This document shows, piece by piece, positions 1,870 through 59,280 of a stretch of DNA of 60,324 nucleotides. This DNA is from Bigelowiella natans CCMP2755 (lineage: Eukaryota > Protista > Cercozoa). The DNA lies in contig ADNK01002627.1 in assembly GCA_000320545.1 (NCBI GenBank), positions 1 to 60,324 on the forward strand. The letters are read 5' to 3'. The number at the start of each line of letters is the position of its first letter. The stretch's first letter is position 1. Under the pieces are notes generated by a model. It saw only the letters and a list, made by a program, of their open reading frames with translations. It made no database searches and was not told the origin of the DNA. The position numbers were made by a program, and so were the translations under genes.

Positions 1870-2035
1870 AACCTTTGGCTTCCACACACGGGAAACGATT
1901 TGACTAACAATGTCACAGCAGCTAGAAGAACAGCAGGACTTTGGCTCGCAGGCCGTGCAAGGGCACGAGCAGAAACAGGAAAGGAAGGGCGATACGGACG
2001 CTAAGGAAGGAGGAGGAACACCTCCACAGGCACCG
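1870..2035 (+). repeat. 166-bp inverted repeat, copy 1 (leader, PBS and gag start)
   Basis: aacctttggcttccacacacgg...ccacaggcaccg is the reverse complement of 4045-4210. Both copies start an ORF with MSQQLEEQQDFG...PPQAP. Confidence 0.95.
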
Positions 2036-4543
2036 CCGGGACCAGCACCCGGGATTAAGAAAGCAGATGCAGCAGCAGAGGCACTGGAGAACTTCTACGA
2101 GGCGGACGACGAGGACGTGGCCGCCGAAAGCAAGAAGGTCGTAATGGCATTACGAGCCTTGCGACCCAGGGCGAGCAACTACGCCAAACTGAAAGTATCG
2201 ATAGAATACAAGTATCAGACACATGATGTTTGGGCAGCTATCATGCAGGACATCATGGATTACGAAGCAGACTTACCTCCAGAGTGGGCAGCTTTGTTTA
2301 GGAACGACGGGGGTCTGGGCGCCTCGCGGGGGACGACCCAGAGCACCGTCAAGCAGCAGCAGCCGGTACAGCGGAACACCCAGTTCATGTCTGTTAAAAC
2401 AGCACCGGTTATGATAACGAAATACAACGGGAAAAGAGGTGAGGCAAGGAGGTGGTGGAAGAACGCTAGGAGTATACTCTGCGACTTTACCCCTAACCCC
2501 ACCGAAAACGACAAGCTCAAATGGCTAGCTATAATAAAGCAAGCCATGGACCTTTACGAGACAGGCAGGACCCGGATCAGGCAGCTAGAGAAAATACACA
2601 CTACAGTTAGTGGGCTACGAGACGTTGAGGCGATAATGAAGGCTTTTGTAAATGAACAGGATGCTAACTCCCTACCCCAGGCTATTAGAAAATACAGAGC
2701 AATGATGCAGCATGAGAGAGAACCTGTTAGAGACTTTGCCACGCGCTTCCAGGATATGATCGACGAACTACATGATTTTAATTACAACACAGGTGATGAT
2801 CAGGCAAGGTTTGAAGAGTTCAAGTTAAAGATAAAGGAATCCACTTACGTTACGGAGAAAGGCTACACCACGATGGAGGCAGCAGTGCAGGCTATATCCC
2901 TACGCGAGCAGGAGCAGGACCGCAAGTTTACCAGCCCTAAGGTACCTGGCATAGGAAACATTAACGCTATTAAGCCGCAGCGAGACTGGTACAAGGACAG
3001 GGAAGGTAACCGACGTTGCGGATACTGCTCACGTAAAGGGAAACACACCGCTAAAGACTGCAGAGACAGGAAAGAAGGACGACCCAGGATGACGATCAGG
3101 CAGCTCAACGAACACTACGAGAAGTTAAAGAGAAAGAAAGGCAGAGGACAAGGATATAACAACAGCAAATGGCAAGGCAGCAACAACGGGAAGAACAATA
3201 AATATAAGAACAAAAAGCAGAACAGTATCAATGCTATACAGCAGCAGATAAACGGAATATTAGATCACCTTAAGCAGGCGCCGACGAAGACAGCAGTACC
3301 AGCAACGCAGGACCAAGACAAGCCCATGACCCTAGACGACATAAAGAACTTAGGAGTATGCAACATTAATGACGAAGACGCTAACAGGACTATCAAAGTT
3401 GCTATGACCAAGGTTAAAGTTAAAGACAGCTACGGAGACTACAAGAAACTACCTGCCCTTTGGGATAGTGGCAGCATGCCGAAGTCCTTCATAAGCCTAA
3501 GCACAGTAAGAAGGTTAGGACTATTGGATCAAGTGACTAAGAAAGAACGTAAATATGCTCAAGCAGACGGAAGCTCTTCCATGAAGACCGTCGGTGAGCT
3601 AATGCTAAAGCTACAGATACCTGGCAGCGACGCGGAGACCCAAATCAAGACCCGAGTAGCCATGACTTTATCCATGGAACTACTCCTCGGACAGGATGCC
3701 CTAGAAAAATTAGGGGGGATCATATCATTCTACAATCACAAGATATACTTTGCTAAGTTGCCAAAGAAGTCAGGCAGGACCATCAGCCAGAACATGATAC
3801 GGCTTGACGAGTGGACCTCTGAGTCAAGCGTTAATGCGTTAGAGTTTATGGACCTAGCGGACAACAAGCTACCTACACCTACCGAGCTACGGAAGAAGAA
3901 CCCCGGCAAGACCATCCGACAGATAACGGAGCTACTGGACAAGACCCCCCCAGCTGATGATTGGGATATCGACAAAGGCAAAAAGTACATTAATAAAATA
4001 TTAAACGAGAAGTACTCTGACATCACCAAGCCGACGACGAAGCCCGGTGCCTGTGGAGGTGTTCCTCCTCCTTCCTTAGCGTCCGTATCGCCCTTCCTTT
4101 CCTGTTTCTGCTCGTGCCCTTGCACGGCCTGCGAGCCAAAGTCCTGCTGTTCTTCTAGCTGCTGTGACATTGTTAGTCAAATCGTTTCCCGTGTGTGGAA
4201 GCCAAAGGTTGTTGCGCGTAAGGTGTTCACAGGCCGAGGCGCTACGTGCACAAGTAGGCAGGGGGGGGGAAAGGCACGTTTGCTTCCTTTTGAAGAGTTG
4301 TGTTTATTTTTATTAAAGATTATATTTTTATTAAATCGTGCACTGCGTAATCATTCGCGAAGCTTTCGCGAATGCCGCCGCACGTGGGGCAGCACACTTC
4401 CGGTGTGCTGCCATGAGTCCCGCCGGAACCCACGTGCCTATGCTGTATTAATATCTACGTTATCTATATTCTATATCCGCGACAACCCCTTTGTTGTCGC
4501 ACGTGACTTGTGCCCGCGTAGTGGTACGCGCTACAACTGCTAG
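1910..4543 (+). CDS. gag: gypsy gag-protease (true homology ends ~4045), reading through into antisense gag start and antisense LTR; chimeric 877-aa ORF
   Basis: Zinc knuckle CGYCSRKGKHTAKDC and aspartic protease ALWDSGS...LLGQDAL. The last ~165 aa translate the reverse complement of 1870-2035 and of the LTR. Confidence 0.9.
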   Translation: MSQQLEEQQDFGSQAVQGHEQKQERKGDTDAKEGGGTPPQAPPGPAPGIKKADAAAEALENFYEADDEDVAAESKKVVMALRALRPRASNYAKLKVSIEYKYQTHDVWAAIMQDIMDYEADLPPEWAALFRNDGGLGASRGTTQSTVKQQQPVQRNTQFMSVKTAPVMITKYNGKRGEARRWWKNARSILCDFTPNPTENDKLKWLAIIKQAMDLYETGRTRIRQLEKIHTTVSGLRDVEAIMKAFVNEQDANSLPQAIRKYRAMMQHEREPVRDFATRFQDMIDELHDFNYNTGDDQARFEEFKLKIKESTYVTEKGYTTMEAAVQAISLREQEQDRKFTSPKVPGIGNINAIKPQRDWYKDREGNRRCGYCSRKGKHTAKDCRDRKEGRPRMTIRQLNEHYEKLKRKKGRGQGYNNSKWQGSNNGKNNKYKNKKQNSINAIQQQINGILDHLKQAPTKTAVPATQDQDKPMTLDDIKNLGVCNINDEDANRTIKVAMTKVKVKDSYGDYKKLPALWDSGSMPKSFISLSTVRRLGLLDQVTKKERKYAQADGSSSMKTVGELMLKLQIPGSDAETQIKTRVAMTLSMELLLGQDALEKLGGIISFYNHKIYFAKLPKKSGRTISQNMIRLDEWTSESSVNALEFMDLADNKLPTPTELRKKNPGKTIRQITELLDKTPPADDWDIDKGKKYINKILNEKYSDITKPTTKPGACGGVPPPSLASVSPFLSCFCSCPCTACEPKSCCSSSCCDIVSQIVSRVWKPKVVARKVFTGRGATCTSRQGGGKARLLPFEELCLFLLKIIFLLNRALRNHSRSFRECRRTWGSTLPVCCHESRRNPRAYAVLISTLSIFYIRDNPFVVARDLCPRSGTRYNC
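4045..4210 (-). repeat. 166-bp inverted repeat, copy 2, adjoining the LTR; contains putative PBS (TGGCTTCCACACACGGGA)
   Basis: Reverse complement of 1870-2035. A TGG-starting tract follows the LTR end and resembles the complement of a tRNA 3' end (Glu/Asp-like, inferred). Confidence 0.9.
4210..4535 (-). repeat. 5' LTR (326 bp, TGT...ACA)
   Basis: Reverse complement of 54943-55268, with termini tgtagcgcg...cgcgcaaca. Confidence 0.95.
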
Positions 4544-5800
4544 ACTGGACAAACACGTGCATCACGTGCTGGCGTGCATGGCTGTGTGCACCCAACTAGT
4601 CAACTAGTAGCCAAGCTAGCAAGTCGTTGACGAAGTACTTCAATGAACTGCGCACGTCAAAACATGACATGCCAGCGTGAGCCACTCCAACACTGCGAAA
4701 CCAAAGCTAGCAAAGCCGTGTGATGATCGAAAATCGCAGTGTTGTGTGCTTGCAGGGCACACTGGCACAGTTCAGTTGTCACCAACCTTCAGGCTGCAGC
4801 GTGCTCTAGTGCACCACAACGCACTGTCGTGAATGAACACCTTGGGAATGCGCTCCAGCTGTGACCGGGTGACGCAATGACGCACGCACACTGCCTTCAT
4901 TGGATCAGCTAGTCAGCTTACACGTTCTGTGCACAACCAGACAACGGAGCCGCCATTTTGACGAACAAGTGCTGCACGCATGCTAGCATGCACGCATGGT
5001 GAACAGTGACCAACTGTCTGGCTAGCACATGGCCTTTGTCATCAGTTCCTGAAGCAGTTCAATCGTGTTATCTGCACGTGCACTAGTACAGGCATGCATG
5101 TGATCTCGCTGATCACTCCACTGTGTGATGAGTGACTGAAACATCATTCAGTCCTGAGATGTCTGCGTGCTGGTCATGAAGAAATGTTCCACGTATCAAC
5201 GACCAAAACACATTGCAAGCATCACTCATCATCGTGCTCCATGACTACCAAAGCATTGTTGGAGATGAGTGGCAGCTGAGATTTTCTCTTCTTTCGGACA
5301 TCAGTGCGAAGATCACTTGCAGCTATGGTTGCGGAGATTCGATGCGAAACTGTTGAAAACATCAAATGTGTGCACTTTAGAAAAGAACACTGACCGACTT
5401 TCGAAAAGAAAAGACAATGATTTTAATTGAAGCGAAGAAAAATCAAATTAGCTAGCTACACAATGAGCATGTCATCAAGTGAAACGCGATCCATGGAAAA
5501 CAGCTCCAGATGTGCGATGCTGCAAAACGCCTGTGTCAGGCGTGCAGAAATGACCACATAAGGAAAGAAATCTTGTGCAAAATGCTCGCCATTCTAAAAA
5601 ATTGCGCTTACAAAGTGCTCGTATCGTCAACAAGTTGCTGGTGTAATTCATTTGAGGACTCGTCGCTCCTGCTGTAGCATCATGTCTTTCACTCTTTTGA
5701 TCCACAATCTCATTTGTCTTCGTGCTCTTCTTCTTTTTACTTCTCGAAACTGAAAATGACCCGCGGCGTTTCACCTAACAGAAACGAGACATTCCTGAAT
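4540..5800. other. TpA-depleted, TG/CA-rich island
   Basis: Few TA dinucleotides, many of them in CTAG; abundant TGCA/CATG; CpG retained. Confidence 0.75.
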
Positions 5801-17199: not shown

Positions 17200-18250
17200 A
17201 TTGGTGCATCTATAGGCGCACAACCACACTAACAAAGACCAGTGTCGCGCATGCATGCTTTTGCACGAGCATGATTGCATTTGCAATTTGCAACTAAGTG
17301 TCTGCTTCGCAGGTTTTCCCCCGGCGAACGGGACGCGCAAGGAGTTTCCTGTCCTAGATCCATTCAAATCTAATCCGTCATTGAAGAGTTTCATCGCCTC
17401 GATCCCGCTGTCGCATGCCGGAATGCATTGGCAGTTGGATGCATCAAATGATCCTTTGTGTGTCACTTTAAAATGGACATGCGTGCGCACAAACGTGTCT
17501 GTGATAGTTGTGATGCGAGAATGTCATGTGAGGCCATGTTTGATGCTTGGTGTGATTCATACATCGGCAAGTCTGAATTGTGCACGCGAGTTAGTGATGG
17601 GCAAGCTGACTAGCTGGGGTGCGTCCTCATTTCACGTTGCAATTCACCAACAATGTGCTCACCATGCATGTTGGTTTGCGTGCCAGCGTGCAGTATGCCT
17701 TGAGCAAGCGATTGCACACGCGCGACGTCGCGCTATATAGCTAGGTCAGACGACGCTAACAGCGCAGCTTTTCAACAGACGACTTGTCCAGCTAGATCGG
17801 CCCCGTCTAGCCGTGCCGAGCGGTTGGTGTTTTTGTGCACGCTGTGGCGCTGCATCATCTGGTCTGTTCATGCAGTGAGCATGCTCGCATTGCACTTCGT
17901 TGCGGCGCATTGCGTCAACGCATTGACGTTTTTGCAAATGCACGCAGCAGCTTCAAACGTGCACATAATATGCCACCTGCGATGCGCATCTCCAGGATGG
18001 TGTAGCGCAACAACTGCCGTTGTACCTGGCTAAAGCATGCAAGAAAATCAATGATGCTACTCGAAATAACAACGCTCCGAAGTTGGACAACAAACTGCAC
18101 ATCCGGCGACTGATGGCATCGTACATCTAACTTGTGCTGCATCAAAACCCATGTCCGCTAGCTTCAATTGCCTCCCAACGAATGCGCATTCCGAATGAAG
18201 AAAAATGGCAGTTGAATATGGCATTGTTCTCACATCTTGGTAAAGCAATA
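17200..18250. other. TpA-depleted, TG/CA-rich island between convergent gene ends
   Basis: TA scarce, CTAG retained, spurious Cys/His/Met-rich ORFs on both strands. Confidence 0.75.
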
Positions 18251-18342
18251 GCTAACTCGGACTACATTCAAAACACAAAAGAGAGAGGGCGAGAGAGCAC
18301 ACACGACTGCATTCCGCCGAGTTGTACCGAGGGCTTAAAAAT

Positions 18343-18779
18343 TTATTTCTGGACTCGCGGTCGGCGATTGGGGGGGGGCTGGTCCAACGATGGTGATTGT
18401 GGGGGATGTAGTAGGGAGGATTTCACTTGTTGGGCTTGTTGCATCGGAGGGAGAAGTCACAGGGAATGATGAGGGAGTTGAAGGTGATTCTACTGTTGGT
18501 GAAGAAGCTGTTGGGACTACAATGGCCGTTGGAGAAATAGACTAAATACCACAGAATATGATAGTTAGTCGGTTATGCTTTCAAAGAGCCAGTGCTGTCT
18601 CACTGGCTAAATACAATGTTCTGCAGCGCAGAAAAGGTATGTATGAAAATGATTCATCTTCGAAAGTGATATCGAGATCAATAAAAAGTGATAAAATCAA
18701 TGAAAAAATTGATAAATAAATATATACATATATACATATACATATGTATACATTTGCTCTTGTGTCTCATCAACGATGT

Positions 18780-36459: not shown

Positions 36460-36500
<41 letters not shown>

Positions 36501-36750
36501 TATATAATATAATATACTTATTATGATATTTCAAGGAATATATCCTATGTCGATGTAAGGTCATCGTCATAGTTCTCAGTGTGATGTTTCCATCCCTAAA
36601 GCAACGCTATGTGATTTTTCTATACCGAAGTACTGCTAATCAAATTGTTTGTTATTGCAGAATCTGCATCAGTGACCGACGATGACTTGAAAGGTTCCAT
36701 AAACGTTATCAATACTTGTGTTAAATGGAATCATGGTGTTGTTCGTTGAT
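26280..36750 (+). CDS. Large coiled-coil protein with internal repeats, >25 exons (ends approximate)
   Basis: Heptad-rich exons such as LAMELKAERELRHQMQLQVMDIKHQN, 31380-31752 and 32391-32874. The unit EQ.(L/I)AQYISDLTAS..IQ.QLKTL is duplicated. Confidence 0.8.
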
Positions 36751-37319
36751 AAGAGTTATAATCCAAATACATACCAATCAATTTTTTAGTGTTAAAAAAT
36801 ATTATATCGAACATCAACAAGAGCCTATCCGAGTATTCAAAGGAACAACAGATATTAGAGGTATGGTCTTCGCCGTTTTTTTCAGCCATCGAGTATTAGG
36901 ATCAAGCTGTGGAACGTGCCAATTGTATCGAGGAAATAAGCTGCATAACCAATTGTATTATGAGTAAATGATGAACTCGAAGCACAATGTTCAAGCGGGA
37001 GAGCCAATTCGTAGCTAAATGTCGAGATTAAATTTTTGTCCATCGCAACGATTAGCAAAGCTCAGCAACGCATATTTTACTTTGATATTCCAGAAAAGAG
37101 TAAAAGATCATGAGTTGGTTTTGAAGACCTATTTCAACGACGGTGCTCAGGAATGATTCGGATAAAATGGATGCATCCTCGAGGGACAACGCAACTGCTG
37201 CACAAAATTAAAACGATACATGTTAGTTATGATTATAGTACGTGGAATGAGCACAATGTAAATTATGAAAGTGTTGACCTTCGCTAAAAGAGCTTGGTAT
37301 AAAGTTACAGCAAATTTAC

Positions 37320-38264
37320 AGGTTCGAGCATGCACACGCGTGCCAAAGCGCATTCGCACATGTAATGAAGCAGGTAGTAGGTTGTGAAACAAGATTGCTG
37401 CTAATTGATAGATCATTCCTTCACATTCTGTGACTGCACATGCAAGTAGTACACACTGCGCAACTGAAGATGAGAAAATGTGGGCAGCGTTGCAATTAAC
37501 TTAGCAATGTAGTGACCATCACGCCAACGAATGGCACATGTCTTGATGTGCACAGCGCCCACTCCTCCAGTTTGCGATGATGGACACAACCGTGCACATC
37601 TAGCTCCTAGGCACGCGCGTGGCAGCAGCGTGACCGAATCCATTCTGATCAACACTCAATGGGCTGAACCTTTCAAAACCATGCACAGCTGTCCATGCAT
37701 GTCGAGCCTCTTGCAATTGCACGGAATGCTAATCACGTACAAAATCACGCTTGCTAGCTAGCTAGCTCACGCAAGCAAGAGCTGCGAACCATCGCACCAC
37801 TACATGCTGTAGCATGCCAGCACTGGAGCACATTGCACAATCAATTGTGCCACAAAATGTTAGCCCACAAACTCACCAAACAGGTGCGTGGGATCAACGT
37901 CTGGCAGAAATGTTGTGCACAGAATTTTGCGCATCTGGAGTGCTGGAGTGCTCTGGTCCATGCTAGCATGGTCCTAGATGCTCATGTGATGCACTCAAGC
38001 GTGTTGTGCGCCACGTTTCATCAAAACGCTAACTGCATCTGCATGCAACTTTGAGTGCATTGTGCAACCATGACCAAACCGACCACACAGCTAGCAGATT
38101 GGTTGTCAGCACTGCTGAACCACACGCACTAGACGCAGCCATGCAAGCCAGCAGCCAGCAAGCTAGCACCGTTCGTGCGCTGGTGCTGCCAGACTGGCTC
38201 GTTCTAGCGTTGGTTGTTGCCAAGCTCCACATCCAGAACTAGCAAGTTGAAACGAAAACCGTTC
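37320..38264. other. TpA-depleted island, left flank of the PLV
   Basis: 37861-38260 has 9 TA in 400 bp by eye, 7 of them in CTAG. Confidence 0.85.
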
Positions 38265-38621
38265 GCAGCAGAGAATGGACCACACCCCACATTTGATTTC
38301 CCATCTGCCGTCAGTGGGGGAATGACACAAAATTTTCATTTCAAAAATTCACCTACTGACGACCCACTGCTGAACTGAATTGTTGGAATGACATGGCAAA
38401 ATTGCCATGACGAGCATGACATGTCAAGTGTTCGACATTTGATTTCCCATCAGCAATCAGTAGCAAAATGTGCGAAAATGCGCAACATGAAAGCTTCACC
38501 TACTGACGACCTGCTGCTGAACTGAATTGCTATGATGACATGATGAAAATGTTCTACCCATGTGTTTTGTGAAAACAATCTTTGTTAAAAATGACATAGC
38601 AAAATCCACAGCAGAGCATCG
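38265..38621 (+). repeat. Left TIR (357 bp) with two internal subrepeats
   Basis: Reverse complement of 43268-43620 except for 4 substituted sites and one 4-bp indel. Subrepeats catttgatttcccatc and ttcacctactgacgacc..ctgctgaactgaattg each occur twice. Confidence 0.97.
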
Positions 38622-38660
38622 TTAAAAACACTGTAAATTTATTCTCACCTAAAATAATAA

Positions 38661-39491
38661 ATGAGAATATTCAAATCAAAAATAGGAAAACCATTGGACA
38701 AATGGCTGACGGAAGAACAATTCAGATCTTTGAAGAACAAAAGATTTCTGTATGTGATATCATCAAACATGGACACATATAAAAGGAAATCTACTGAAGA
38801 ACTTGTCATAAAGTTCGGTCAAGGCAAGGGAACTCAACCAGCATCAAGATTAAAAGATTACATGTCATATTATGGATATACTGATAGCAAAAGGCCCTGG
38901 ATGGGTTGTAAATTACATTATTTATTCATCACTGAAAAGAGTAAAAAAGTAGCAGCTATAAACTCTATGGTTCATAAATATGAACTAAAATTAAAACAGT
39001 ATGCTAGAAAAAACAACTTGTTAGTAGACAGAGGCGATGAAAGAATATTAATAAGGTTGAGTAAATTGATGAGAATATTAGATCATAAACAATTTAAAAA
39101 ACTTACAGACATTGAGTCAAAACCTACATACAATCTACGAAACAAAAAGCAGAAATACATCGTTGAAATATTAGACCATACAAACAAAGCAAAGAAAAAT
39201 AACCATCAAGAACCTACTACCTTTAAAGTGAAATATAGTGATGGAAGTCTTGAAGGCACCATTAGATATGTGTTGCCTAATGATGTTAAATCAAAGAATT
39301 TTGATAGATTGTTTCTTAAATATTATAAAAACTCAAATGACAAAGAGAATATTAAATTACAAGATGAATACATAAAATATCTTAGTCTCAAATCAGATGA
39401 TTTTGATAAATTGTTCCGCAAATATTACAAGATTTCAAAAGACAAAAAAACATCAAACTTGAAGATAAATAAAATTTATTATCATCAATAA
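38661..39491 (+). CDS. GIY-YIG/T5orf172-like putative nuclease with C-terminal chromo-like segment
   Basis: FLYVISS...VIKFGQG...SRLKDY...HKYELKLK pattern, followed by QKYIVEILDH...TFKVKYSDGS. Recognised by pattern only. Confidence 0.55.
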   Translation: MRIFKSKIGKPLDKWLTEEQFRSLKNKRFLYVISSNMDTYKRKSTEELVIKFGQGKGTQPASRLKDYMSYYGYTDSKRPWMGCKLHYLFITEKSKKVAAINSMVHKYELKLKQYARKNNLLVDRGDERILIRLSKLMRILDHKQFKKLTDIESKPTYNLRNKKQKYIVEILDHTNKAKKNNHQEPTTFKVKYSDGSLEGTIRYVLPNDVKSKNFDRLFLKYYKNSNDKENIKLQDEYIKYLSLKSDDFDKLFRKYYKISKDKKTSNLKINKIYYHQ

Positions 39492-39507
39492 TAATAATAA
39501 AAATTAT

Positions 39508-39663
39508 TTACTTACCATACTTTTTTAATGCTATCTCGTGGGCCTCTTTGAAGCTTTTACCTAACATTAGGTTCATTCTCATAGAAGCCATATGTTTTTT
39601 ACTGTGATGTTTAGAATGAACTGGTAATAAATCCTTTTGTCTTTTGGTTAATTTTTTTAACTA
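39508..39663 (-). CDS. Small basic viral-type ORF (~50 aa, start codon not evident)
   Basis: Manual translation KKITKRQKDLLPVHSKHHSKKHMASMRMNLMLGKSFKEAHEIALKKYGK*, directly downstream of the penton ORF. Confidence 0.5.
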
Positions 39664-39676
39664 GATATTTTTTTTC

Positions 39677-40348
39677 TTATTCCTTAGTCTGATAAAACAA
39701 AGATACTGTCATAGAATAATCTATACCATTATTTTCTATTTCATCTCCATCACCATCTACAAGTGTAAATTTCAAGTTGCTTACATTCTTTTTTTTCATT
39801 AATTCAATCCTTTCACTTGGTTTCTCATTATCATATAAAATACTTCCAAAAGAAACATCGCCGCTAACTTCATAAACTATGTTTGATAATTGACCTGCTA
39901 ATTCTGTATCCAGTTGTAAATCAGTTTGGATATAAACAGGTTCTGGTGATAGATTACTCATATTATCTGCTACATGTACTGTAGAAAGAGGTGTAGTGTC
40001 ATTATAACCTAAAAATTTAGAGCATTCGTTTTTTAATATTTTGAAATCGCTACTACAACCTATACTAAATTTTCCTGTTTTAGCATTGTATACAGGAGTA
40101 AAAGTTCCTACTGATGAGGCATTAGTTGAAAGTTTAGTTTGTAATTCTGTTACTAATTCAGTAGCAGAATAATTTTGTTTTGTTAATTCTGCACTTGTTT
40201 TGTTTCCAGAACTGTTCTCAATTTCTAAAATGTTATTTTTAGCAGAAACATTGTAATAAGTAATTGGAAATCTTACTCTTGTAATAGAAATAGAAGATAC
40301 ATTATCAATTAAACTATCAAAAATTAAGTTATTTGTGGATAAGCACAT
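39677..40348 (-). CDS. Polinton/PLV minor capsid (penton) protein, N-terminally truncated
   Basis: FPITYYNV...NYSATELVTEL...YNAKTGKFSI...FLGY...FGSILY...LKFTLVDGDGDEIENNGIDYSMTV matches the PLV penton pattern as I recall it. No ATG start. Confidence 0.75.
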   Translation of the reverse strand: MCLSTNNLIFDSLIDNVSSISITRVRFPITYYNVSAKNNILEIENSSGNKTSAELTKQNYSATELVTELQTKLSTNASSVGTFTPVYNAKTGKFSIGCSSDFKILKNECSKFLGYNDTTPLSTVHVADNMSNLSPEPVYIQTDLQLDTELAGQLSNIVYEVSGDVSFGSILYDNEKPSERIELMKKKNVSNLKFTLVDGDGDEIENNGIDYSMTVSLFYQTKE

Positions 40349-41429
40349 TGATAAAAAATTTATTGCTACTGGTGATTTAGCTCAATTGGATCCCATTGAA
40401 AACGAATATCTGTTTAATAACATCAAAGACCTTGATGTTAGAACAACTGAAGCTTTGAATGATATGTTTCCTAATATTATTACTCTTAAAATCTGTAAGA
40501 GAGTAAAAACAGACGAGGAAAGAAATACTCTTGCACGATTAAAACAAGAAATATTTGATGTAAAAACTAAACCATTTGACATACTAAAAAAATATTTTAA
40601 AGTTGTGAAAAGTATAAGTGAAGTTAGAACTCTCAACAATATTACCTTCTACAACTTTAGATCCCGTTCAGTAGGTAAGCACATCCATAGCCTACAAAAG
40701 AAACCGAGAAAAAAGGTTTATGTAGATGGTATTTGCTACTATGCTGGTATGGAGATTGTGTGTAAAAAATTTAATAAGAAACCAAAACTATATGTGAACT
40801 ATGCTTATGAAATTGTTAAAGTAAGTAAAAAAGAATTTGTAATACAGGATGTATGTGATATGGAAGAAATAAGAATTCCTATAGAATTAATTAGTAAGCA
40901 TTTTAGATTATCATATGCCTCTACCTGTCATAGTTTTCAAGGATTATCAGTAGATGGCCCTATTACCGTATTCGATACTAACACCTGTAGAATTAATCGC
41001 AAGTGGCTCTGGACTGCTATAACTCGTTCAACTGACCTTTCACAGATACAAATATATCAGCACAGCGATAAAGAATGCTACAGATTAAAAGAAAGTATGA
41101 TTTCTCAAAAACTACGAATGAAAGTATCTTCATATAAATCTCAGGACAAAAGAGCTGGTAGAACTTGGAAAGATAAAGAATATATTGATGAGGAATGGAT
41201 AAAAAGAACTGTTAATAATCATCCACAATGTCCTGTGTGTAGATGTGGATTTACTGCTGATAATGTTTCTGTGGATAGAATTGATAATGATCTACCCCAT
41301 CTCTGGAACAACTGTAGATTAACTTGTGTGGAGTGCAATCTTAGTAGAAATAACCAACAAACATATCCTCAGGATGTTGAATTTGAAGATAAAATAAGAG
41401 AAAAGGATCTAAAGGATTTAGGGATATGA
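40335..41429 (+). CDS. SF1 (Pif1/RecD-like) helicase C-terminal half fused to an HNH/endonuclease VII-like Zn domain; N-terminally truncated
   Basis: ATGDLAQLDPI (motif III), YASTCHSFQGLSV (motif V), LWTAITRS (motif VI), then CPVC...SVDRIDNDLPH...NCRLTCVECN. Walker A/B are missing. Confidence 0.85.
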   Translation: MDKHIDKKFIATGDLAQLDPIENEYLFNNIKDLDVRTTEALNDMFPNIITLKICKRVKTDEERNTLARLKQEIFDVKTKPFDILKKYFKVVKSISEVRTLNNITFYNFRSRSVGKHIHSLQKKPRKKVYVDGICYYAGMEIVCKKFNKKPKLYVNYAYEIVKVSKKEFVIQDVCDMEEIRIPIELISKHFRLSYASTCHSFQGLSVDGPITVFDTNTCRINRKWLWTAITRSTDLSQIQIYQHSDKECYRLKESMISQKLRMKVSSYKSQDKRAGRTWKDKEYIDEEWIKRTVNNHPQCPVCRCGFTADNVSVDRIDNDLPHLWNNCRLTCVECNLSRNNQQTYPQDVEFEDKIREKDLKDLGI

Positions 41430-42079
41430 GGCAGTGAAGAATAGAAATGCGAAATTCGATTTTGCGTTTTTTTAATGATGATAAATTGTTATTATTATTA
41501 AAAAATCGGTACAGCTACGGATGTAACCATTATTTTTGGGAGAAACGGTATAAGTCTCCTCACATTACATGTACTTTACTTCCTTTGAATTTATATACCC
41601 CGACAACCATCTCACTGATAAACCCCTCACGACAACTTTAAACAACAATTTTCCTTTTAAATTGCACACCTTATATTCCCATCATTAAACTTATCAGAAT
41701 AAAGGCCCCAAACCTAAAAAAAAAAAAAAAAAAGCCTCAAACCTAAAAATCAAAAGAAAAAAGTTTATTAGTCCCATAAGTCACAAATTTTGCCATGTTT
41801 TGCCATGCAAATTTTGACTTTCGCAATGTCCGTTATGAGACAACATCCACTATGAAAATCACTTCGGTGTAACAACATAGCTGGGAAGTCAAGGGCGCGA
41901 AAAGATTAACTAACTAACTAACTAACTACATGTCGGTTAGCGATTTGGCCTTCTCTTTTCCAATTTGCGACATCAATTTTCGGTTCTTCATGTGGAAATA
42001 GTAATGCGTTTTCCTCTTTGGCGACGCTTGTATGCTGAACTTGATGATTATTAAACTTGTCCTTCCGTCTATCTCAGTC

Positions 42080-43012
42080 ATGGTTCCCGCCTTCGCACTT
42101 TTGCTACTCTGGGCATCCACAGCGTTAGCGTCCTGTTATTCCGTCCGAAATGACGCGTCGTGGGTTAAGGTTCGCACGATCAATTCCAGCGCGGCTGACT
42201 GTCCATATTTCACCGACAACCTTAACGGGAGTCAAGCTGTTGGTGCTGTCACAGGCGGCGGCGAAGTCATCCAAACTTACGACGGCAGCAGCATTGTGGG
42301 GTTCAAGTTTGAAACGGGTAACGGAGCGAATTTCCTCATCGCAAGAAGGTTTCAAGTCATCGGGGAAACCTACACTGGTTCATCCCCACGAGACGTTTAT
42401 TGCAGCAGCTATTCCAACAGTTCCTACACAGCAGAGTGGTACAACCGTGGGAGCAGCAACCCAAGCGACCCTTTGATATTTCTCCGGGGCTACAGCACCT
42501 CCACCACTTCAAAACAAAATTGTTTCTACTGCGAATATGAAGCTGGTCAAGGCGACCCATTCCAAACGATGTGGCAGGCCAACGGCGGTATTGACATCTA
42601 CGTGACCTCCAACCAAGTCTTCCCGACCAGTTCTCCAACAGCCATGCCAACCGCAAGCCCCGCAACCACGAGCCCGACCGCAAGCCCCGCAACCGCAAGC
42701 CCCGCAACCACGAGCCCGACCGCAAGCCCCGCAACCGCAAGCCCCGCAACCACGAGCCCGACCGCAAGCCCCGCAACCGCAAGCCCCGCAACCACGAGCC
42801 CAACCTCAAGCCCGACCTCTAGCCCGGATGATGACGATGCCGAAAGCATTGTGGGTCCTGTCGTCGGTGCGGTCTGCGGATTCTTGGTGTTGGCAGCTGT
42901 TGTTGGATACTGCTACTACCAGCGAGGCAAGCCCAGCGTCGACCAAAATGCGAATGACCAAAACTTCGCTGGAGTAGTCAATGACCAAAAAGGGGGAAAC
43001 AACGCATTGTAG
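42080..43012 (+). CDS. Intronless type I membrane protein: signal peptide, lectin-like domain, (T/A)SP(A)T repeat stalk, TM helix
   Basis: MVPAFALLLLWASTALA signal, WYNR...DPLI...NGGIDIYV domain, tandem TASPATTSP repeats and the TM segment IVGPVVGAVCGFLVLAAVVGYCYY. Confidence 0.85.
   Translation: MVPAFALLLLWASTALASCYSVRNDASWVKVRTINSSAADCPYFTDNLNGSQAVGAVTGGGEVIQTYDGSSIVGFKFETGNGANFLIARRFQVIGETYTGSSPRDVYCSSYSNSSYTAEWYNRGSSNPSDPLIFLRGYSTSTTSKQNCFYCEYEAGQGDPFQTMWQANGGIDIYVTSNQVFPTSSPTAMPTASPATTSPTASPATASPATTSPTASPATASPATTSPTASPATASPATTSPTSSPTSSPDDDDAESIVGPVVGAVCGFLVLAAVVGYCYYQRGKPSVDQNANDQNFAGVVNDQKGGNNAL
42648..42826 (+). repeat. Coding tandem repeat (42-bp unit built from 15/12-bp subunits)
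   Basis: accgcaagccccgcaaccgcaagccccgcaaccacgagcccg repeated ~3.5 times. Confidence 0.9.
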
Positions 43013-43267
43013 GCCTAAAAATGGATTGCTGCATCGCTGGGGGATGGCAAGTTGTTTGCTGTTGGCGGGCCTAACGATGAAGATGTTCCTTGCACATCGG
43101 GGAAACATCTTCGCATTGCCATGCAGCCTGCTTTGATTTGAACATTTAATCGTTGTGTCATTTTTTATTTGCTTTTTTTTTTTACAATTGCACTGAAATC
43201 TAAAATTAATATTTTGTTAAAAACTTTGTTAAAAAAAATTAATATTACTTTTTAAGAGTAAATGATG

Positions 43268-43620
43268 CGATGCTCTGCTGTGGATTTTGCTATGTCATTT
43301 TTAACAAAGATTGTTTTCACAAAACACATGGGTAGAACATTTTCATCATGTCATCATGGCAATTCAGTTCAGCAGCAGGTCGTCAGTAGGTGAAGCTTTC
43401 ATGTTGCGCATTTTCGCACATTTTGCTACTGATTGCTGATGGGAAATCAAATGTCGAACACTTGACATGTCATGCTCGTGCAATTTTGCCATGTCATTCT
43501 AACAATTCAGTTCAGCAGTAGGTCGTCAGTAGGTGAATTTTTGAAATGAAAATTTTGTGTCATTCCCCCACTGACGGCAGATGGGAAATCAAATGTGGGG
43601 CATGGTCCATTCTCTGCTGC
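43268..43620 (-). repeat. Right TIR (353 bp)
   Basis: Reverse complement of 38265-38621. Confidence 0.97.
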
Positions 43621-44450
43621 ATCAAAATTTTCGAAAAACTGCGTGGACAGTGGACAGCTAGACAGCGTTGGCGGCCGCAGCAGGGGACATCACATCGAAG
43701 CAACACGAAATCACAACGTCATCAATGACTGACAACAACAACACAGAAAAAAATCAGAAATGATGCATCAAAAGAAAACGAAATTCACTCAAATTCACCC
43801 GTGCTCAAGTCGATCAAAGTCCTCTGTCCCCTTTCGTGGCCATTCACAACGTCCAGAACGTCCAAACGCGCTGCATGTAAGCCAGGAAGCACTCTCATTG
43901 GTTGCAGGATGAAGATTGAGAACAACTTGCACCCTGATGGTCTGTGACACGCTGGCTTCACGCTTTGCGTCTCAATTGAACCGAAAACACACTCAGCTCA
44001 AGATTCAATCTTCAAGATCCTCAAAGCCCATGCCAGCATGGCTGCCATTTCGACCGTGGTCGCAGCTCAAGATTCAATCTTCAAGATCCTCAAAGCCCAT
44101 GCTGGCATGGCTGCCAACGGTCGAAATGGCAAGAGCCGAGAACAATGAACAATGAACAAAGCGTTGATCAAATCTGCATGCGCCAGAATCACATGGGAGA
44201 CAGGCGTTTATATGCATGCAGCAGAGCCTCAACAACACTCGTTGCAAGGACAATGAACAATGAACAAAGCGTTGATCAAATCTACATGCGCCAGAACCAC
44301 ATGGGAGACAGGCGTTTGCATGCAGCAGAGCCTCAACAACACTCGTCAACAAACAGAGGAACAAAGCATCAGGTGCTCTCAGAGATGCCCGTCTGAAAGC
44401 ATGCGAAAACACAGATGCGACATTCAAAAATCTCGACAAATCTCTAGAAT
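43621..44450. other. TpA-depleted island, right flank of the PLV
   Basis: 43621-43980 has 2 TA in 360 bp by eye; CpG is plentiful. Confidence 0.85.
43994..44347 (+). repeat. Two adjacent tandem duplications (~69-bp and ~108-bp periods)
   Basis: cagctcaagattcaatcttcaagatcctcaaagcccatgc occurs twice, and acaatgaacaatgaacaaagcgttgatcaaatct...caacactcgt occurs twice. Confidence 0.9.
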
Positions 44451-47043
44451 CCCATTGTTTTTGAATCTCGAGGCACGTTTCGTTACTTTCTTCAGATGTT
44501 ATTGCCTTAAAAAAGTTACTCGCAGGAAAAGAAAACGCCAACACAAACAACAGCGACGGCCCTGCGATGCGCTCGAAGAGACTGGTTCCGATGTCTGCCT
44601 GCCTGCTTCCTCTAGCTGATATTTGTTCAATTCTAGCCGCAAGTTGTTCCAACCAACCTGTTTGATTTGGTTCTCATTTTCTCGATCGTTGTCTTTAATG
44701 CGTCGCCAAGCAGAAGGGCCATGCCCCAGATACGTTAGGAAATGCAATAACACTGCAATTTTTGGCTATGGTCGTTCAAACGTATAACGATGACGCACAA
44801 TTATATCATATAAACTTGTAATGAATTGTACCATTTCCTGTCTTTAGCTGTAGCAACCTTGTAATGCGTCCTTTCTTTACTTTCCGCCTTCGCAGACGAA
44901 CCCACATTCAATGATACCGCAGAGCTGGGAAGGTGGGATGTTTCCAACTAAAACTCAGCGAGGAAGGGGAGAGAGCGTGAGGGCGGTCGCAAGACTATTG
45001 ATCATGTTATCTATGTGCAATTTCGCCTATGCACGAGAGTTTTATCCCGCATAATTAGATCTTTTTCAGGCAAGTGTAAAGTCGATAGATTCTCAGCTTA
45101 TGCATTCTCCTCCTTCACATATGCCGGGACAGCATTAGGTCGCAGTATGTGTAGTTTACAAAGTGTCATTGCTCTTACGTAGGTGCTAGAGTACACGTAT
45201 AATTAACGGTATGCGTTCTGGAAATATTGACGTATTTCAGATACATCAATTTCTTCCGATCTGATATACGCTTGTGCATAATGTTACGTACTCAGCGCTA
45301 TGGACGGTCTTCGCATCGGCGCGTTATTACCCAGGTTGGCGCAGTCAACCTATCAATAATATAGATTATTCTTTACGAATAGAGTGTCGCACTGTTATGG
45401 CTAAGGTGGTTATTTGTAGGGGACCCGGCATTTGATGGTGTTTTGTTCGCACTGCAAAGCGTCTTCACGTTCGTGGCGGATGTAATGTATGTTGCGTTGT
45501 CCTACTCGTTCTGAAACATGATTCTTGACAATGACCCGCCAAAAAAACGATTCGCTCATGGCGCCAATTGGCGTAAATAGGTATCTCGGCCATGATTCTA
45601 TGTGGCATGCTCTTGATAGGTTTTCAACGAATGGTTTCGCTTCATAAATTAAACGCGATTAATGATGTGTATGGGCTTATCGCGTATTATTTGAATATAC
45701 GGTGATTATAGATGCTACGCCACGTTCGTAGTACTATGGCTAATCGGTACAAAGGTGAGTGTAACGAAAACATCGCAGAAGCACACACACACACAAAACA
45801 TTATAATAAATAAAATAAATGTATATTATGCGCTTGCCCCAGCAATAAAACACTCCAAATTGAAGCACAAAGAGCATGCACATTTCCTTTATATTTCGAA
45901 ATTTATTCCTATTCTTCCAAACATGAAGAGGATCTGAGCAATTTTATGCTGTCGCTTCAGATTTGGCGGATTTCGGGCATAGAAGTACTGATATGGATCG
46001 CAGGGACAATACTTGGAATGTATCAACACAACTTTCCCAGACTCTATAGCTACAATTTGCTAAAACTCTTGAAATTTTTCTTTCTGAATTGTGCATGTAA
46101 TACGGCGTAAAACGGTCACTGACAGGTTTTGCCTTGGCCAATCACGGCGCGCGCGGAGCGAAGAACACGCCAGCTGGGAAGGGTAATTAGCTAGTTTCTA
46201 TTACGAGACATTTGAACTATCTGAGCTATATGTTTTTCTAACTTCGACAAAACAAGACGTTGCGATACAAATGTGCAAGATTACGAGCATTATATCTATC
46301 ACATCAGTTTTCAGTTCTGGCATTCGATCTGGCATCTCTCATTGCCTTTAAGCTATATTTGCTGGTGCGTCTATGTACTTTAATTATGATTAAAAATGAT
46401 ATTACTCATCGATTCAACATGAATTACATGCCGTGGCGAACCATGCTTTGTATGTCTTGTCGTTGAGTGATGATGCTAGCTGCCCACCACGTGAAAAATG
46501 AGCGGTGCTACATGCGGTCTAGCGGTGCTGTTGATTAAAATGTGAGGTGTAGAGGTACTAGCCTTAGAGCCTGTAGTAGTAATCATTCAAGCATGATGAG
46601 ATAAATCGTGTTTTTGAGTCATTGTTGTGCAACGCCTAAAACTTAGCTGCGCTCTTGTGCAGTATCGCAAGCATAATGTTTCGCCCCCCTTCCAATCTAG
46701 CAAAGCGCAGCATCTAGCTCTAGAGCTATGCAGATATCTAGATTAAAGCAATTAAATGATTCGGAATGATCATACGATTTTTTCTAATCTTATTGCAACT
46801 GTCCTAATGGGTGTGTGTTTATACACATCTAGCATGCTAGCATGATCAGCGTCTAGATTGACTAGATTGCACACTAATAGATTAAATGATGTAAGCTGTG
46901 TGAGCAGAAACTAGGTTTTATTTAGTAGATGTATCACAATGTTTTGGTTGGCTATCAATTTGCATTGTTCGCATAGTTATGTATTTTAATGAACATAAAT
47001 GATGTTCTTTGGAATCAAGACCTCTTTTAATTTGCCTTTATTT

Positions 47044-50054: not shown

Positions 50055-50249
50055 ATCATCAAAAAATTTTAGTTCCGTAGATTTTTGTTAGTCTCCTCGG
50101 CCTCCCATCGTGGGATGAGGAAGTAACGCGTAGAATGGTGGACTCGTACCGAAGGCTGGAGAAGATACTTCCATGGCTTTTTGGATTGTTTCACTGCACA
50201 TTTTTTGTGAATGAAATTCATCGCTTTTGAGTGTTACGACATCACCATT

Positions 50250-51000
50250 GCTATGTCGTATCGCACGGCTTGTCGCACACGGTGTACATTGTGATGACCT
50301 GCGTTTCTTCATGGCGACTTGTTGCATCCGATTGATTTGGAGTTTCATTTGCTAAAGGCGCGTTCAAAGAAACCTTTGTTGATTGACCAATGGCATTTTT
50401 TGTTGTCACACACGCAGCACGTGCAACGCGCACACGTGAAATGCAGCCAGCTAGGCAGTTCCTCACGCGCAGTTCACAGCTTCAGGCTTCAGACTTGCGT
50501 TGATTTTGTTTTTCACGATGAGCTGCACTGAGGTCTGTGTGCACGCTGGCACGTGCTAGCGTGAAACATGGCTGTGGAAGCCTGAAAGCGCAAATGCACG
50601 AGGTGATGGCAAAACAGAACGCACAAAAGCCAAAAGTGCAACCAAAATCATCATCAAAACTGTGAATCCATGCATGCAGGGGCAACGTGTTGACACTGGA
50701 CAGCGTCGATGAGCAGAGACACTTCGACGGAATGATGAACCGCTAGACCATGGCACACCATTGCTTGCATCTAGACATGTGCATCAAGCTGCATGGAAGA
50801 AATCGCGAATGTGCGAAACTGTCGTTCTGCCTTTTGGTCTTATTTGTTTGCTCTTGCCCATTCGTGGTTTGGATGAAAGTTGAGAATTTTGACATCGATG
50901 ACTGTGAGCCCCAACACCGACGTTCTCCAGCAACGGATCTTTTGCGTCTGTTTTTCTACGTGATGTGGTGGACAGTGATTCAAAAGTTGTTTTTCTGCAT
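50250..51000. other. TpA-depleted island overlapping the 3' end of the photolyase gene
   Basis: 50401-50820 has 4 TA in 420 bp by eye, all in CTAG. Confidence 0.85.
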
Positions 51001-54032: not shown

Positions 54033-54559
54033 TTCTGGAGCGCGCTGCAGGAAAGAATGCGGTGCTGAAGCAAGAGAAATAGAGGAAGAGGGGAAGGCTG
54101 CAATGCTCGCGAAATGAACCGCAGCAACTAAAGCGACAGCCGTCGTCGTTACCCTGGCCGCAGCTAAGAGAAGCCGACCACCATTGATTTCTCCTACCGG
54201 GAATGCTCGTTGCACCTGAATGAAGACCAAATATCACTGCGACAAGTAATATAGTCAACATTTGACGAAATTCCCCTGGGTATGTACACGTACGCATGGA
54301 ATGCCCCTCACAATTAACAAGTCTCGGAGAAAGAAAGGCGAACTGACACCAGAGAAAGAAGCTGTTAAAATTCGCCCCTGAGCTCGTGGAATCCCGTCGA
54401 TGTTCAGCATGAGACAATCTCATGCTGTTGTCTCTAGTTCGAAAAGGCAGGCATATTTGCAAAATAAGCTTTGAGCCATTCTCAGCCATTCTATGCCACG
54501 AACATCGCCAGCTGGACTTGGAGATTTTTGAGATATTCTAAGGACATCTCTTGAGATCT

Positions 54560-55420
54560 CCGCTCGGCTCTGAAATCAAGAGAAGGATGAACGCAATTCT
54601 GCAATTCTGTCAAACAGACACTTGTGATGAATTTTGTCTGTGGCTGCGTGCAAACGCTTGTTCCCCATGCTGTTCTTATGCACGTAGTTCTTGCATCAAT
54701 GTGAAGTTCAATTCTCAATGTCTAATGACGTCGATCGTGATGATCTAGATGATTGCTAGATTGCGATGCTGGTGAACCTTGCACGTCGGCCAGGCGGCAT
54801 GATTCACAACGAAAGCGTTGCAAGTTGCAAGCTGCATCATGGTTCAAAAGATTCACACGCAAGTGGCTGCTGTCATTACGCAGTGCTAGAGTGGCAGTCG
54901 CAGTCTCAACTGCAGCTCGCTCTCATGAAACTTTGACAAATTTGTAGCGCGTACCACTACGCGGGCACAAGTCACGTGCGACAACAAAGGGGTTGTCGCG
55001 GATATAGAATATAGATAACGTAGATATTAATACAGCATAGGCACGTGGGTTCCGGCGGGACTCATGGCAGCACACCGGAAGTGTGCTGCCCCACGTGCGG
55101 CGGCATTCGCGAAAGCTTCGCGAATGATTACGCAGTGCACGATTTAATAAAAATATAATCTTTAATAAAAATAAACACAACTCTTCAAAAGGAAGCAAAC
55201 GTGCCTTTCCCCCCCCCTGCCTACTTGTGCACGTAGCGCCTCGGCCTGTGAACACCTTACGCGCAACAAATTTTGCAACTGTCAGACGTGCAGAACGCTA
55301 GCCAACGCCACACGCACATGATTTCAGCTAGTCAGGCACATGTTGTTTTGTGGATGCGTATGAACTGCATTCACTGATAACTAAAGTGCTAAATTGCATG
55401 ACACAACAACACTACTCACA
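54560..55420. other. TpA-depleted island hosting the solo LTR
   Basis: The flanks are TA-poor with CTAG retained, while the LTR itself is TA-rich. Confidence 0.75.
54943..55268 (+). mobile_element. Solo LTR of the gypsy family at 1-4535, with 4-bp TSD AATT
   Basis: 326 bp, TGT...ACA; no difference from 4210-4535 seen. AATT at 54939-54942 and 55269-55272. Confidence 0.95.
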
Positions 55421-58699: not shown

Positions 58700-59280
58700 T
58701 AGGTGATAGCGGAGCTCGAATGAGTCATCTCATCCGATGTCGATGAAGCACTAAGCTACATGACATTCACTCGTTTCAGAAGGAAGTTGTGGCTAGTTTT
58801 CTTGTCGCGATGAAGGAAGAAGCTGAGCTTTGCCTCCATCTTCAAGAACAACCGGGAAGAGCGTCCCAAGGACACAAGAGTGAGCGAATCATTTGCATGT
58901 CGCTAAGGTGAAATGTGCACCATTTTTGCAACAAGTGCCACCTCAAAACCTGATGCACTTTTTCCATTCATTCTTCCTTCTCATTGACTTTCACCGTTGT
59001 CGTCGTCCAACCTCTCTCTTCGTTCGGAGCCTTTCCGAAGAAAAAGGTGTCTCTTCGGCATCATGCCTTCATCTGAACAGTGTTTCAGCCATCGTGTTGC
59101 CCACTCTCTTTCTCTCTCTTTGTCTCTCTTTCTCTCCAGTGCATGCAAAAAAGCAGCGTTGGTGCAATGTGGCTAGCAACAATGAAAACGCAATTCCAGC
59201 GCATGAGAAGTTAGCTTTCTAGCACAGCTCATTCTGCTCTGCCCTGGGTCGCAGCACGAAGGCTCTCCTGACAGCCTGCC
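58700..59280. other. TpA-depleted island between divergent gene starts
   Basis: 58801-59222 has 4 TA by eye (CTAG twice, CTAA, TTAG). Confidence 0.8.

What the first reader, a model, noticed from the sequence alone, without database searches (positions are those of the whole stretch)
38265..43620. All substitutions between the two PLV TIRs are TA/CA/TG interchanges
Seen by manual alignment of 38265-38621 against the reverse complement of 43268-43620: one 4-bp indel and four substituted sites. These are CA (38283-4) vs TG, CA (38365-6) vs TA (43519-20), TG (38384-5) vs TA (43500-1), and TA (38531-2) vs CA. The site in subrepeat gacgacc[NN]ctgctg occurs as CA, TA and TG (38512-3) among its copies, most simply explained by ancestral TA decaying on either strand. 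The terminus GCAGCAGAG may derive from GTAGTAGAG or TA|CAGTAGAG (inference), which could also explain why no TSD is visible. Both TIRs are already TA-poor (7 TA in the left copy) at shared positions while the core is TA-rich. This suggests earlier decay was copied into both ends and that the process reaches only a few hundred bp into the element.
Basis: partly seen in the sequence, partly recalled or inferred. Interest (0 to 1): 0.82.

Follow-up and report, generated by a model that had tools for sequence, protein, structure and literature searches.

The report
TA-erasing mutator scars algal virus ends

Summary
Observation confirmed: the 357/353-bp TIRs differ at five bases in four TA/CA/TG sites plus a 4-bp indel. 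The host is Bigelowiella natans and the element is an internally deleted polinton-like virus of the PLV-Bnat family. TpA->CpA/TpG hypermutation of integrated viral DNA is already shown in this species (bioRxiv 10.64898/2026.01.13.699255), so the core idea is right but not new. Other copies support ancestral TA at two of four sites; at one the majority is CA, one is unresolved. The 'few hundred bp reach' is not a general rule: another copy is hit through its central helicase (11 of 12 private changes), and TA loss runs 0.8-0.9 kb outward into host flanks. Additions not in the preprint's main text: TA-free islands of 0.5-1.2 kb, three of six without a visible element; an edge at a polyadenylation site inside the TIR; TA lost mostly at silent codon positions in the outer viral genes; CTAG spared. 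The scan noted the mutator and CTAG sparing before, elsewhere in this genome and in diatoms. Real, mechanistically useful, a new case of a known process.

The parts
38265..38621 (+). Left terminal inverted repeat (357 bp) with two internal ~108-bp subrepeats (38289-38395, 38435-38542); 7 TA, none free of a TAG on either strand in the outer 300 bp
43268..43620 (-). Right terminal inverted repeat (353 bp); 8 TA
38283..38284 (.). Site 1: CA (left) vs TG (right); ancestral state unresolved (TA or CG)
38365..38366 (.). Site 2: CA (left) vs TA (right); T in 24% of family depth, CA majority
38384..38385 (.). Site 3: TG (left) vs TA (right); A in 20635 of 20956 family depth, so left copy derived
38531..38532 (.). 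Site 4: TA (left) vs CA (right); no T>C row among the 40 best-supported of 68, so TA likely the family state
38406..38409 (.). 4-bp indel, present in left TIR only; most family depth lacks it (1559 of 2536)
38565..38565 (-). Family-level polyadenylation site inside the TIR (right-TIR equivalent about 43324); coincides with the edge of TA loss
   Evidence: 40 RNA reads of run X21 with a non-templated T run
38661..39491 (+). ORF1, 276 aa, possible GIY-YIG nuclease; synonymous TA sites depleted, strongest in codons 1-70 (3:14 vs 39:6), Tyr codons kept
39677..40348 (-). Minor capsid (penton) gene lacking about 20 N-terminal codons; no synonymous TA depletion
40311..41429 (+). C-terminal 372 codons of the PLV Pol-helicase-HNH gene (93.7% to residues 890-1268 of Bigna1/134767); the internal deletion junction lies near 40311-40339
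42032..43012 (+). GC-rich 326-aa predicted secreted protein with T/S/P/A stalk and C-terminal hydrophobic stretch; carried by another copy too; synonymous TA depleted (11:52 vs 117:135)
37500..38264 (.). Left host flank, TA-free island (1 free TA, 173 CA+TG), single-copy-level depth over most of it
43621..44500 (.). Right host flank, TA-free island; holds a high-copy repeat (44139-44346) and two tandem duplications whose differences are again mostly TA/CA/TG

Best explanation
The two end repeats of this shortened polinton-like virus differ only at TA/CA/TG steps plus one indel, and they and the neighbouring host spacer have lost most TA steps, likely because the B. natans TpA mutator (predicted to be a DNA adenine deaminase) works in bursts on silent, untranscribed DNA and largely spares expressed or selected genes. 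Steps. (1) Shown in the literature: T/A->C/G transitions confined to TpA arise de novo in integrated viral DNA of this species, in some lines only. (2) Shown here: the same signature separates the two TIRs and separates PLV copies; the A of T-A-G is changed least. (3) Inferred: A in TpA is deaminated to inosine on either strand and read as G, giving TG or CA; enzyme unidentified. (4) Inferred: the element landed in an intergenic spacer that was already TA-poor; the untranscribed outer 300 bp of each TIR then took five more hits at its last, slow sites while the core took about one. (5) Inferred: ancestors of this copy went through earlier rounds of integration, TA loss and remobilisation, which copied decayed sites into both TIRs and left TA loss mainly at silent codon positions of the outer genes. 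Copies that fell fully silent were hit through the core.
For: Spectrum; 26 of 28 transition rows shown in the TIR lay fall on TA/CA/TG dinucleotides (p=5e-7), 19 of 28 are direct TA<->CA/TG; 13 of 14 shown T>C/A>G rows in the element are at TpA against 23% expected. Direction: Bigna1/87971 has 18 TA-type of 28 scored helicase changes against 5.8% background, and 11 of its 12 private changes; preprint. Context: 37 of 91 surviving TA in islands are CTAG vs 99 of 3209 in other host DNA. Silent-DNA pattern: six TA-free islands, three with no element seen; the one at 50200-50783 sits between two host genes whose bodies keep TA; two TA-rich LTR copies (24 TA each, no TA-type difference between them) sit against islands, so the islands predate those insertions; free TA are 0 of 11 outside and 19 of 25 inside the polyadenylation site (p=2e-5). 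Selection filter.
Against: Site 2 has a CA majority and site 1 is unresolved. At 38323-4 T>C (3854 of 8195) far exceeds G>A (865), so CG is common there, which fits a CpG origin or a double hit. Only 40 of 758 and 40 of 68 difference rows were visible, chosen by support, and summed contig depth is no copy number. Gene bodies are not fully spared: the photolyase last exon (OR 0.21, p=3e-6) and the element's expressed-looking membrane gene are TA-depleted at synonymous sites. The polyadenylation reads cannot be assigned to this copy, and selection on promoter or 3' signals could keep TA inside that edge without any shielding. Helicase vs membrane gene contrast within Bigna1/87971 is not significant (p=0.08-0.30). 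Islands were delimited by me after seeing the data, in one 60-kb window with only partial gene mapping. The preprint found no raised rate outside two viral regions in 378 days, so these islands were not being mutated then.
Confidence: 0.62

Rival explanations
1. Junction-centred halo: the same TpA mutator is recruited to the ends of inserted elements (for example by paired TIRs, dsRNA or heterochromatin seeded there) and leaks about 1 kb into the host flank and a few hundred bp inward, like RIP leakage in fungi. Islands without an element would be scars of lost or unrecognised insertions.
For: All three elements in the window abut an island although islands cover 11% of host DNA (0.0014 if independent). 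TA fraction rises with distance from four of five junctions (Spearman 0.78-0.87, p<0.01 each). The PLV lies near the centre of its island. Synonymous TA loss in ORF1 is strongest in the codons nearest the end. A scan note describes a halo around a small diatom transposon (e1-9916015; unchecked).
Against: The LTRs themselves are untouched and identical at all 24 TA; the solo LTR's right flank shows no gradient (rho 0.20, p=0.58); three of six islands have no visible element; profiles look like plateaus with edges near genes rather than smooth slopes; another PLV copy is hit in its centre. Elements are expected in spacers anyway, which inflates the 0.0014.
Confidence: 0.22
2. Same pattern, other chemistry: an error-prone Y-family polymerase (Pol eta- or iota-like misinsertion at TA) or a modified thymine in silent chromatin makes the T->C changes, not an adenine deaminase.
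For: No enzyme has been tested (preprint). From my own knowledge, not from a call: Pol eta mutates WA motifs with TA preferred, and eukaryotic ADAT2/3 tRNA substrates often have U-A-G, which does not predict the TAG sparing seen here.
Against: The preprint reports the viral-region changes as all on TpA (230 of 231 changes A->G or T->C), tighter than polymerase signatures I recall, which also hit AA and give transversions.
Confidence: 0.1
3. Opposite direction: CpG decay (CG->CA/TG) and RIP-like CA->TA changes, or gene conversion among many TIR copies, produced the differences.
For: rho(CG) is 0.5 in the TIRs; site 2 has a CA majority; CG is common at 38323-4; many TIR copies exist to convert from.
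Against: RIP-like change would enrich TA, but TA is four-fold depleted; site 3 has TA in 98% of depth; private changes in another copy run TA->CA/TG; the published de novo direction in this species is TA->CA/TG. Conversion would move alleles between copies but not explain the spectrum.
Confidence: 0.04
4. Assembly artefact: the two TIRs are mosaics of reads from different family copies.
For: No shown contig links the three inner sites to unique flank.
Against: Site 1 is linked to unique flank on both sides in independent assemblies; the rare G at 38385 exists in the reads at low depth; even a mosaic would sample the same TA/CA/TG family variation.
Confidence: 0.02

Closest known systems
TpA hypermutation of integrated NCLDV and virophage DNA in Bigelowiella natans (Mettrop et al., bioRxiv 10.64898/2026.01.13.699255)
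   Same: Same species, same change (TpA->TpG/CpA), integrated viral DNA, uneven between lineages; both TIRs pass its composition cut-offs (rho TA <=0.43, rho CA+TG >=1.52), though those were set for 1-kb windows.
   Different: The preprint's two hypermutable regions are an NCLDV and a virophage; its main text has no occurrence of 'polinton', 'inverted', 'CTAG' or 'flank'. Here: a PLV, TIR pair, host flanks and element-free spacers, TAG sparing, an edge at a polyadenylation site, and a selection-filtered record in outer genes. Its supplements could not be seen and may hold some of this.
PLV-Bnat, first described as B. natans 'transpovirons' (Krupovic, Yutin, Koonin 2016, PMC5499653; Blanc et al. 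2015, not readable here)
   Same: TIR-bounded linear element with Tlr1-like SF1 helicase plus C-terminal HNH-type region and a penton gene; helicase 93.7% identical to gene model Bigna1/134767.
   Different: Only 5.36 kb: major capsid, packaging ATPase and the polymerase part of the helicase gene are missing; a non-autonomous deletion derivative.
Repeat-induced point mutation (RIP) of ascomycetes, with leakage into single-copy DNA (PMC9453070)
   Same: Dinucleotide-specific transitions on both strands in repeats, spilling into unique neighbours.
   Different: RIP is C->T (recalled: mainly CpA->TpA) and builds TA; this removes TA. No link to repeat pairing or a sexual stage shown here.

Membership tests
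B. natans TpA hypermutation | Changes are T->C / A->G transitions | tested here: met
   All five TIR substitutions are transitions; A>G 183 and T>C 200 places vs G>A 60 and C>T 46 in run X1 over 36500-45500, similar in X2-X4
B. natans TpA hypermutation | Confined to TpA | tested here: met
   13 of 14 shown T>C/A>G rows in the element; 11 of 12 private changes in Bigna1/87971
B. natans TpA hypermutation | Direction TA->CA/TG at the four TIR sites | tested here: inconclusive
   TA majority at site 3, likely at site 4; CA majority at site 2; site 1 unresolved
B. natans TpA hypermutation | Host is B. natans and target is integrated viral DNA | tested here: met
   ORF 42032-43009 is letter for letter in EukProt and clusters at 90% with a B. 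natans gene model; helicase relatives are Bigna1 models
B. natans TpA hypermutation | Long-term TpA depletion with CpA+TpG excess | tested here: met
   rho 0.23/1.80 and 0.27/1.78 in the TIRs; sliding 1-kb windows over both ends pass the preprint's cut-offs
B. natans TpA hypermutation | De novo rate about 1000-fold above genome baseline | not testable with these tools
   Needs per-line read data at this locus; contig tables cannot give a rate
Polinton-like virus, PLV-Bnat | Terminal inverted repeats | tested here: met
Polinton-like virus, PLV-Bnat | Tlr1-like SF1 helicase with C-terminal HNH region | tested here: met
   UvrD_C_2 28.2 bits, cut-off 27.4; 93.7% to Bigna1/134767 residues 890-1268; HNH match itself is weak, E=1.6
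Polinton-like virus, PLV-Bnat | Minor capsid (single jelly roll penton) | tested here: met
   Model of the 84%-identical relative P0001 (pLDDT 75) matches mavirus penton, E=2e-9; window copy lacks its N-terminus
Polinton-like virus, PLV-Bnat | Major capsid protein and A32-like packaging ATPase | tested here: not met
   The four long ORFs between the TIRs are otherwise accounted for and no Pfam hit points to either; so filed as a deletion derivative, not a complete PLV
Polinton-like virus, PLV-Bnat | Inactivated protein-primed polymerase domain fused to the helicase | tested here: not met
   The first 889 residues of the 1268-aa relative have no match in the element
Polinton-like virus, PLV-Bnat | Stand-alone GIY-YIG nuclease | tested here: inconclusive
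   ORF1: Atlas lead 0.86 to a cluster with 32% GIY-YIG members; no Pfam hit
Fungal RIP | C->T transitions enriching TpA | tested here: not met
   TA four-fold depleted; direction opposite

The most novel reading that the evidence does not exclude
The B. natans TpA mutator is not aimed at foreign sequence as such but at untranscribed DNA, erasing TA from ordinary intergenic spacers up to the edges of transcription units; PLV-Bnat survives it by cycling through integration and remobilisation, so its TIRs and the silent codon positions of its outer genes carry a cumulative, datable record of passages through the host's editing defence.
Probability: 0.35. Interest if true: 0.72.

Novelty: new member of a known kind. 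Interest (0 to 1): 0.47.

Why it matters
The mutator is reported but its enzyme and targeting rule are open. TIR pairs are natural before/after controls: each copy dates its own exposure. The TAG sparing gives a motif to test candidate enzymes against. The TA-free spacers, the edge at a polyadenylation site and the copy-to-copy contrast turn 'what does it target: foreignness, element ends or silence?' into a question that existing genome and RNA data can answer. It may also explain the preprint's unexpected result that viral coding sequences are not TA-poor: in this copy the central genes keep TA while ends and spacers lose it.

Tried and rejected
No whole genome is held for this window, so a copy-by-copy TIR alignment could not be made. 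No relatives of the penton or helicase in viral contigs (29 and 1 pattern matches, none confirmed) and no exact match to a 25-letter TIR motif in metagenome contigs: no free-virus or outgroup TIR was found. Blanc et al. 2015 is not held. No PDB sequence match for the helicase fragment. TSD search: no exact duplication of 2 or more bases at termini 38265/43620; if the ends are moved in by one base the flanking pairs are CG and CA, two and one TA-type steps from TA, which fits but does not show a decayed TA target duplication; no TA-preceded or GTAGTAG-like end appeared among the loose ends shown (24 of 116). No empty-site joint among 15 of 39 joints shown. No RNA holder listed for the 9-kb stretch. 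Pfam scan of 179 host-region reading frames plus the Gag frame placed only three host genes with matches above cut-off (photolyase, WH2 protein, aldo-keto reductase), too few to classify every spacer. Left and right flanks show no similarity to each other. A family-level gradient of variants by distance from the end could not be measured because the tables are cut to the best-supported rows. Rejected: transpoviron label (penton present; Krupovic 2016), RIP direction, simple AT-richness as the cause of the TIR pattern (shuffles). Literature searches for the additions: searches found only the preprint.
Full report
1. Observation. The left TIR (38265-38621) and the reverse complement of the right TIR (43268-43620) differ at five bases in four sites and by one 4-bp indel, exactly as described. 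All five are transitions at TA, CA or TG steps. Such swaps make up 92 of 1065 possible single changes in the TIR, so four of four has a chance of 6e-5, or 0.0045 given that they are transitions; the class was picked after the fact. The TIRs hold 7 and 8 TA against 29.5 expected; none of 20,000 shuffles fell below 14. Independent assemblies link the CA allele to the unique left flank and the TG allele to the unique right flank with no other letters; the inner three sites are not so linked in the pieces shown.

2. What the element is. The reading frame at 42032-43009 is letter for letter in EukProt and clusters at 90% with a Bigelowiella natans gene model; relatives of the helicase are B. natans models from several scaffolds. 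The helicase fragment is 93.7% identical to residues 890-1268 of Bigna1/134767. The reverse-strand gene is a penton: a model of its 84%-identical relative matches mavirus penton at E=2e-9. Krupovic et al. 2016 (PMC5499653; I saw passages and section 6) reclassified the B. natans 'transpovirons' as polinton-like viruses with penton, major capsid, ATPase, GIY-YIG nuclease and a helicase-HNH protein. This copy is 5.36 kb and lacks the major capsid, the ATPase and the polymerase part, with a deletion junction near 40311-40339. It is a non-autonomous derivative of PLV-Bnat. ORF1 may be the GIY-YIG gene (lead only).

3. The process is known. Mettrop et al. (bioRxiv 10.64898/2026.01.13.699255; I read parts 1-4 of 5, abstract to acknowledgments; supplements closed) found 231 de novo mutations in an integrated NCLDV and a virophage region of B. 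natans, 230 of them A->G or T->C and all of those on TpA, in 11 of 15 lines, and proposed an ADAT-like DNA deaminase without testing it.

4. Direction at the four sites. Laying other genomic copies on the left TIR (40 of 68 rows shown; depth is summed over contigs and is no copy number) gives A at 38385 in 20635 of 20956, so TG in the left TIR is derived. No T>C row for 38531 is among the best supported, so TA is likely the family state there. At 38365 T is only 2759 of 11709: the majority is CA, and at the sister site 38512-3 the majority is TG with A in 4442 of 21037. Site 1 has no row. At 38323-4 CG appears common, which fits CpG origin or a double hit. Overall 26 of 28 transition rows fall on TA/CA/TG steps and six of the seven TA left in the left TIR are mutated in other copies. 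Two sites where both window TIRs share one state but other copies have TA or the opposite product (38315-6, 38497-8) support decay copied into both ends.

5. Reach. In this copy the ends are hit far more than the core: 5 of 40 TIR opportunities since the repeats were last identical, against 1 clearly private change in 145 non-synonymous opportunities in the helicase (p=0.002; assumes all five are TA-derived). But the limit is not intrinsic. Across 36500-45500 other copies differ by A>G at 183 and T>C at 200 places against 60 and 46 the other way (run X1), and 13 of 14 such rows shown inside the element are at TpA, from 38641 to 42053 (40 of 758 rows shown). Gene model Bigna1/87971 has 18 TA-type changes among 28 scored in the helicase against a 5.8% background, and 11 of its 12 private changes; the other 13 helicase sequences scored (14 of the 44 proteins held were used) have 0-2 each. 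Exposure is copy-specific.

6. A selection-filtered record. At synonymous positions TA is depleted in the two outer genes (ORF1 45:41 vs 141:29, p=6e-7, strongest in codons 1-70 at 3:14 vs 39:6; membrane gene 11:52 vs 117:135, p=2e-5) but not in the penton (p=0.21) or helicase (p=0.68). ORF1 codons 1-70 keep four Tyr and have no His or Cys, while Bigna1/87971 has His at two of them. I infer TA loss while the lineage was still functional, i.e. repeated integration and remobilisation. Host controls are mixed: two exons show no effect, the photolyase last exon beside an island does (p=3e-6), and one more is borderline (p=0.044).

7. The surroundings. TA loss is strongest just outside the element: 1 non-CTAG TA per 400 bp on each side, among the lowest 1% of host windows, recovering after 0.8-0.9 kb. 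The window holds six such islands (4537-5500, 17200-18400, the PLV site, 50200-51000, 54400-54941, 58750-59250; delimited by me, 11% of host DNA). All three mobile elements abut one, but three islands have no visible element, one lies between two host genes that keep their TA, and two LTR copies against islands keep all 24 TA with no TA-type difference. So at least those islands predate the insertions. RNA run X21 (about 6% read, reads up to 60 bases) shows a polyadenylation site at 38565 inside the TIR; outside it 0 of 11 TA are free of a TAG on either strand, inside 19 of 25 are. The reads cannot be tied to this copy, and selection on signals could mimic this. In islands 37 of 91 surviving TA are CTAG against 99 of 3209 elsewhere: the A of TAG is changed least, and the TIR differences fall mostly on these last slow sites.

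8. Mechanism. Best reading (0.62): episodic TpA mutation, likely adenine deamination, of silent DNA, with TIRs exposed because their outer parts lie beyond the element's transcripts. Main rival (0.22): a halo seeded at element ends, akin to RIP leakage (PMC9453070, passages seen). The enzyme is untested; a polymerase or modified-thymine route remains (0.10). The terminus and TSD proposals are compatible with the data but unproven.

9. Novelty. The mutator is published for this species. I found CTAG sparing before looking up earlier scan notes, which report the mutator and CTAG sparing on other pieces of this genome and similar patterns in diatoms (unchecked AI notes). Searches for the spacer, TIR and motif additions returned only the preprint, whose main text lacks 'polinton', 'inverted', 'CTAG' and 'flank'; its supplements may bear on the motif. 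Other papers: PMC6723459, passages only; the rest, search listings only. Verdict: real, a new member of a known kind, interest 0.47.

Noticed in passing
window 1904-4536 and 54942-55275: Gag-protease frame of an LTR element ending in an inverted 170-bp duplication (1866-2035 vs 4045-4214, one difference, T/C at a TA) and a 334-bp LTR; a 99.4%-identical solo LTR with an AATT target duplication sits upstream of a photolyase gene.
   Followed up: partly
window 17200-18400, 50200-51000, 58750-59250: TA-free, CTAG-sparing islands with no recognisable mobile element; the second reaches into the last photolyase exon at synonymous sites.
   Followed up: partly
window 44139-44346 and 54643-54722: A high-copy repeat (summed depth 35,000-64,000) present as a tandem pair in the right flank and as a 72% relic in another island.
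   Followed up: no
window 41617-41917: Very high summed depth inside the element, around a 29-bp A-rich tandem repeat; may be a separate abundant repeat or a mapping pile-up.
   Followed up: no
window 42032-43012: GC-rich, host-like predicted surface protein gene carried at the end of at least two PLV copies; no Pfam match.
   Followed up: partly
window 39140-39260: Part of ORF1 looks to me like a chromodomain-type motif (recalled pattern, no Pfam support); if real it could steer the element to silent chromatin.
   Followed up: no
window 38565-38621: The inner 57 bp of the TIR is joined to many different upstream sequences in RNA reads and contigs, suggesting a shared terminator used by different terminal genes across PLV copies.
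   Followed up: partly
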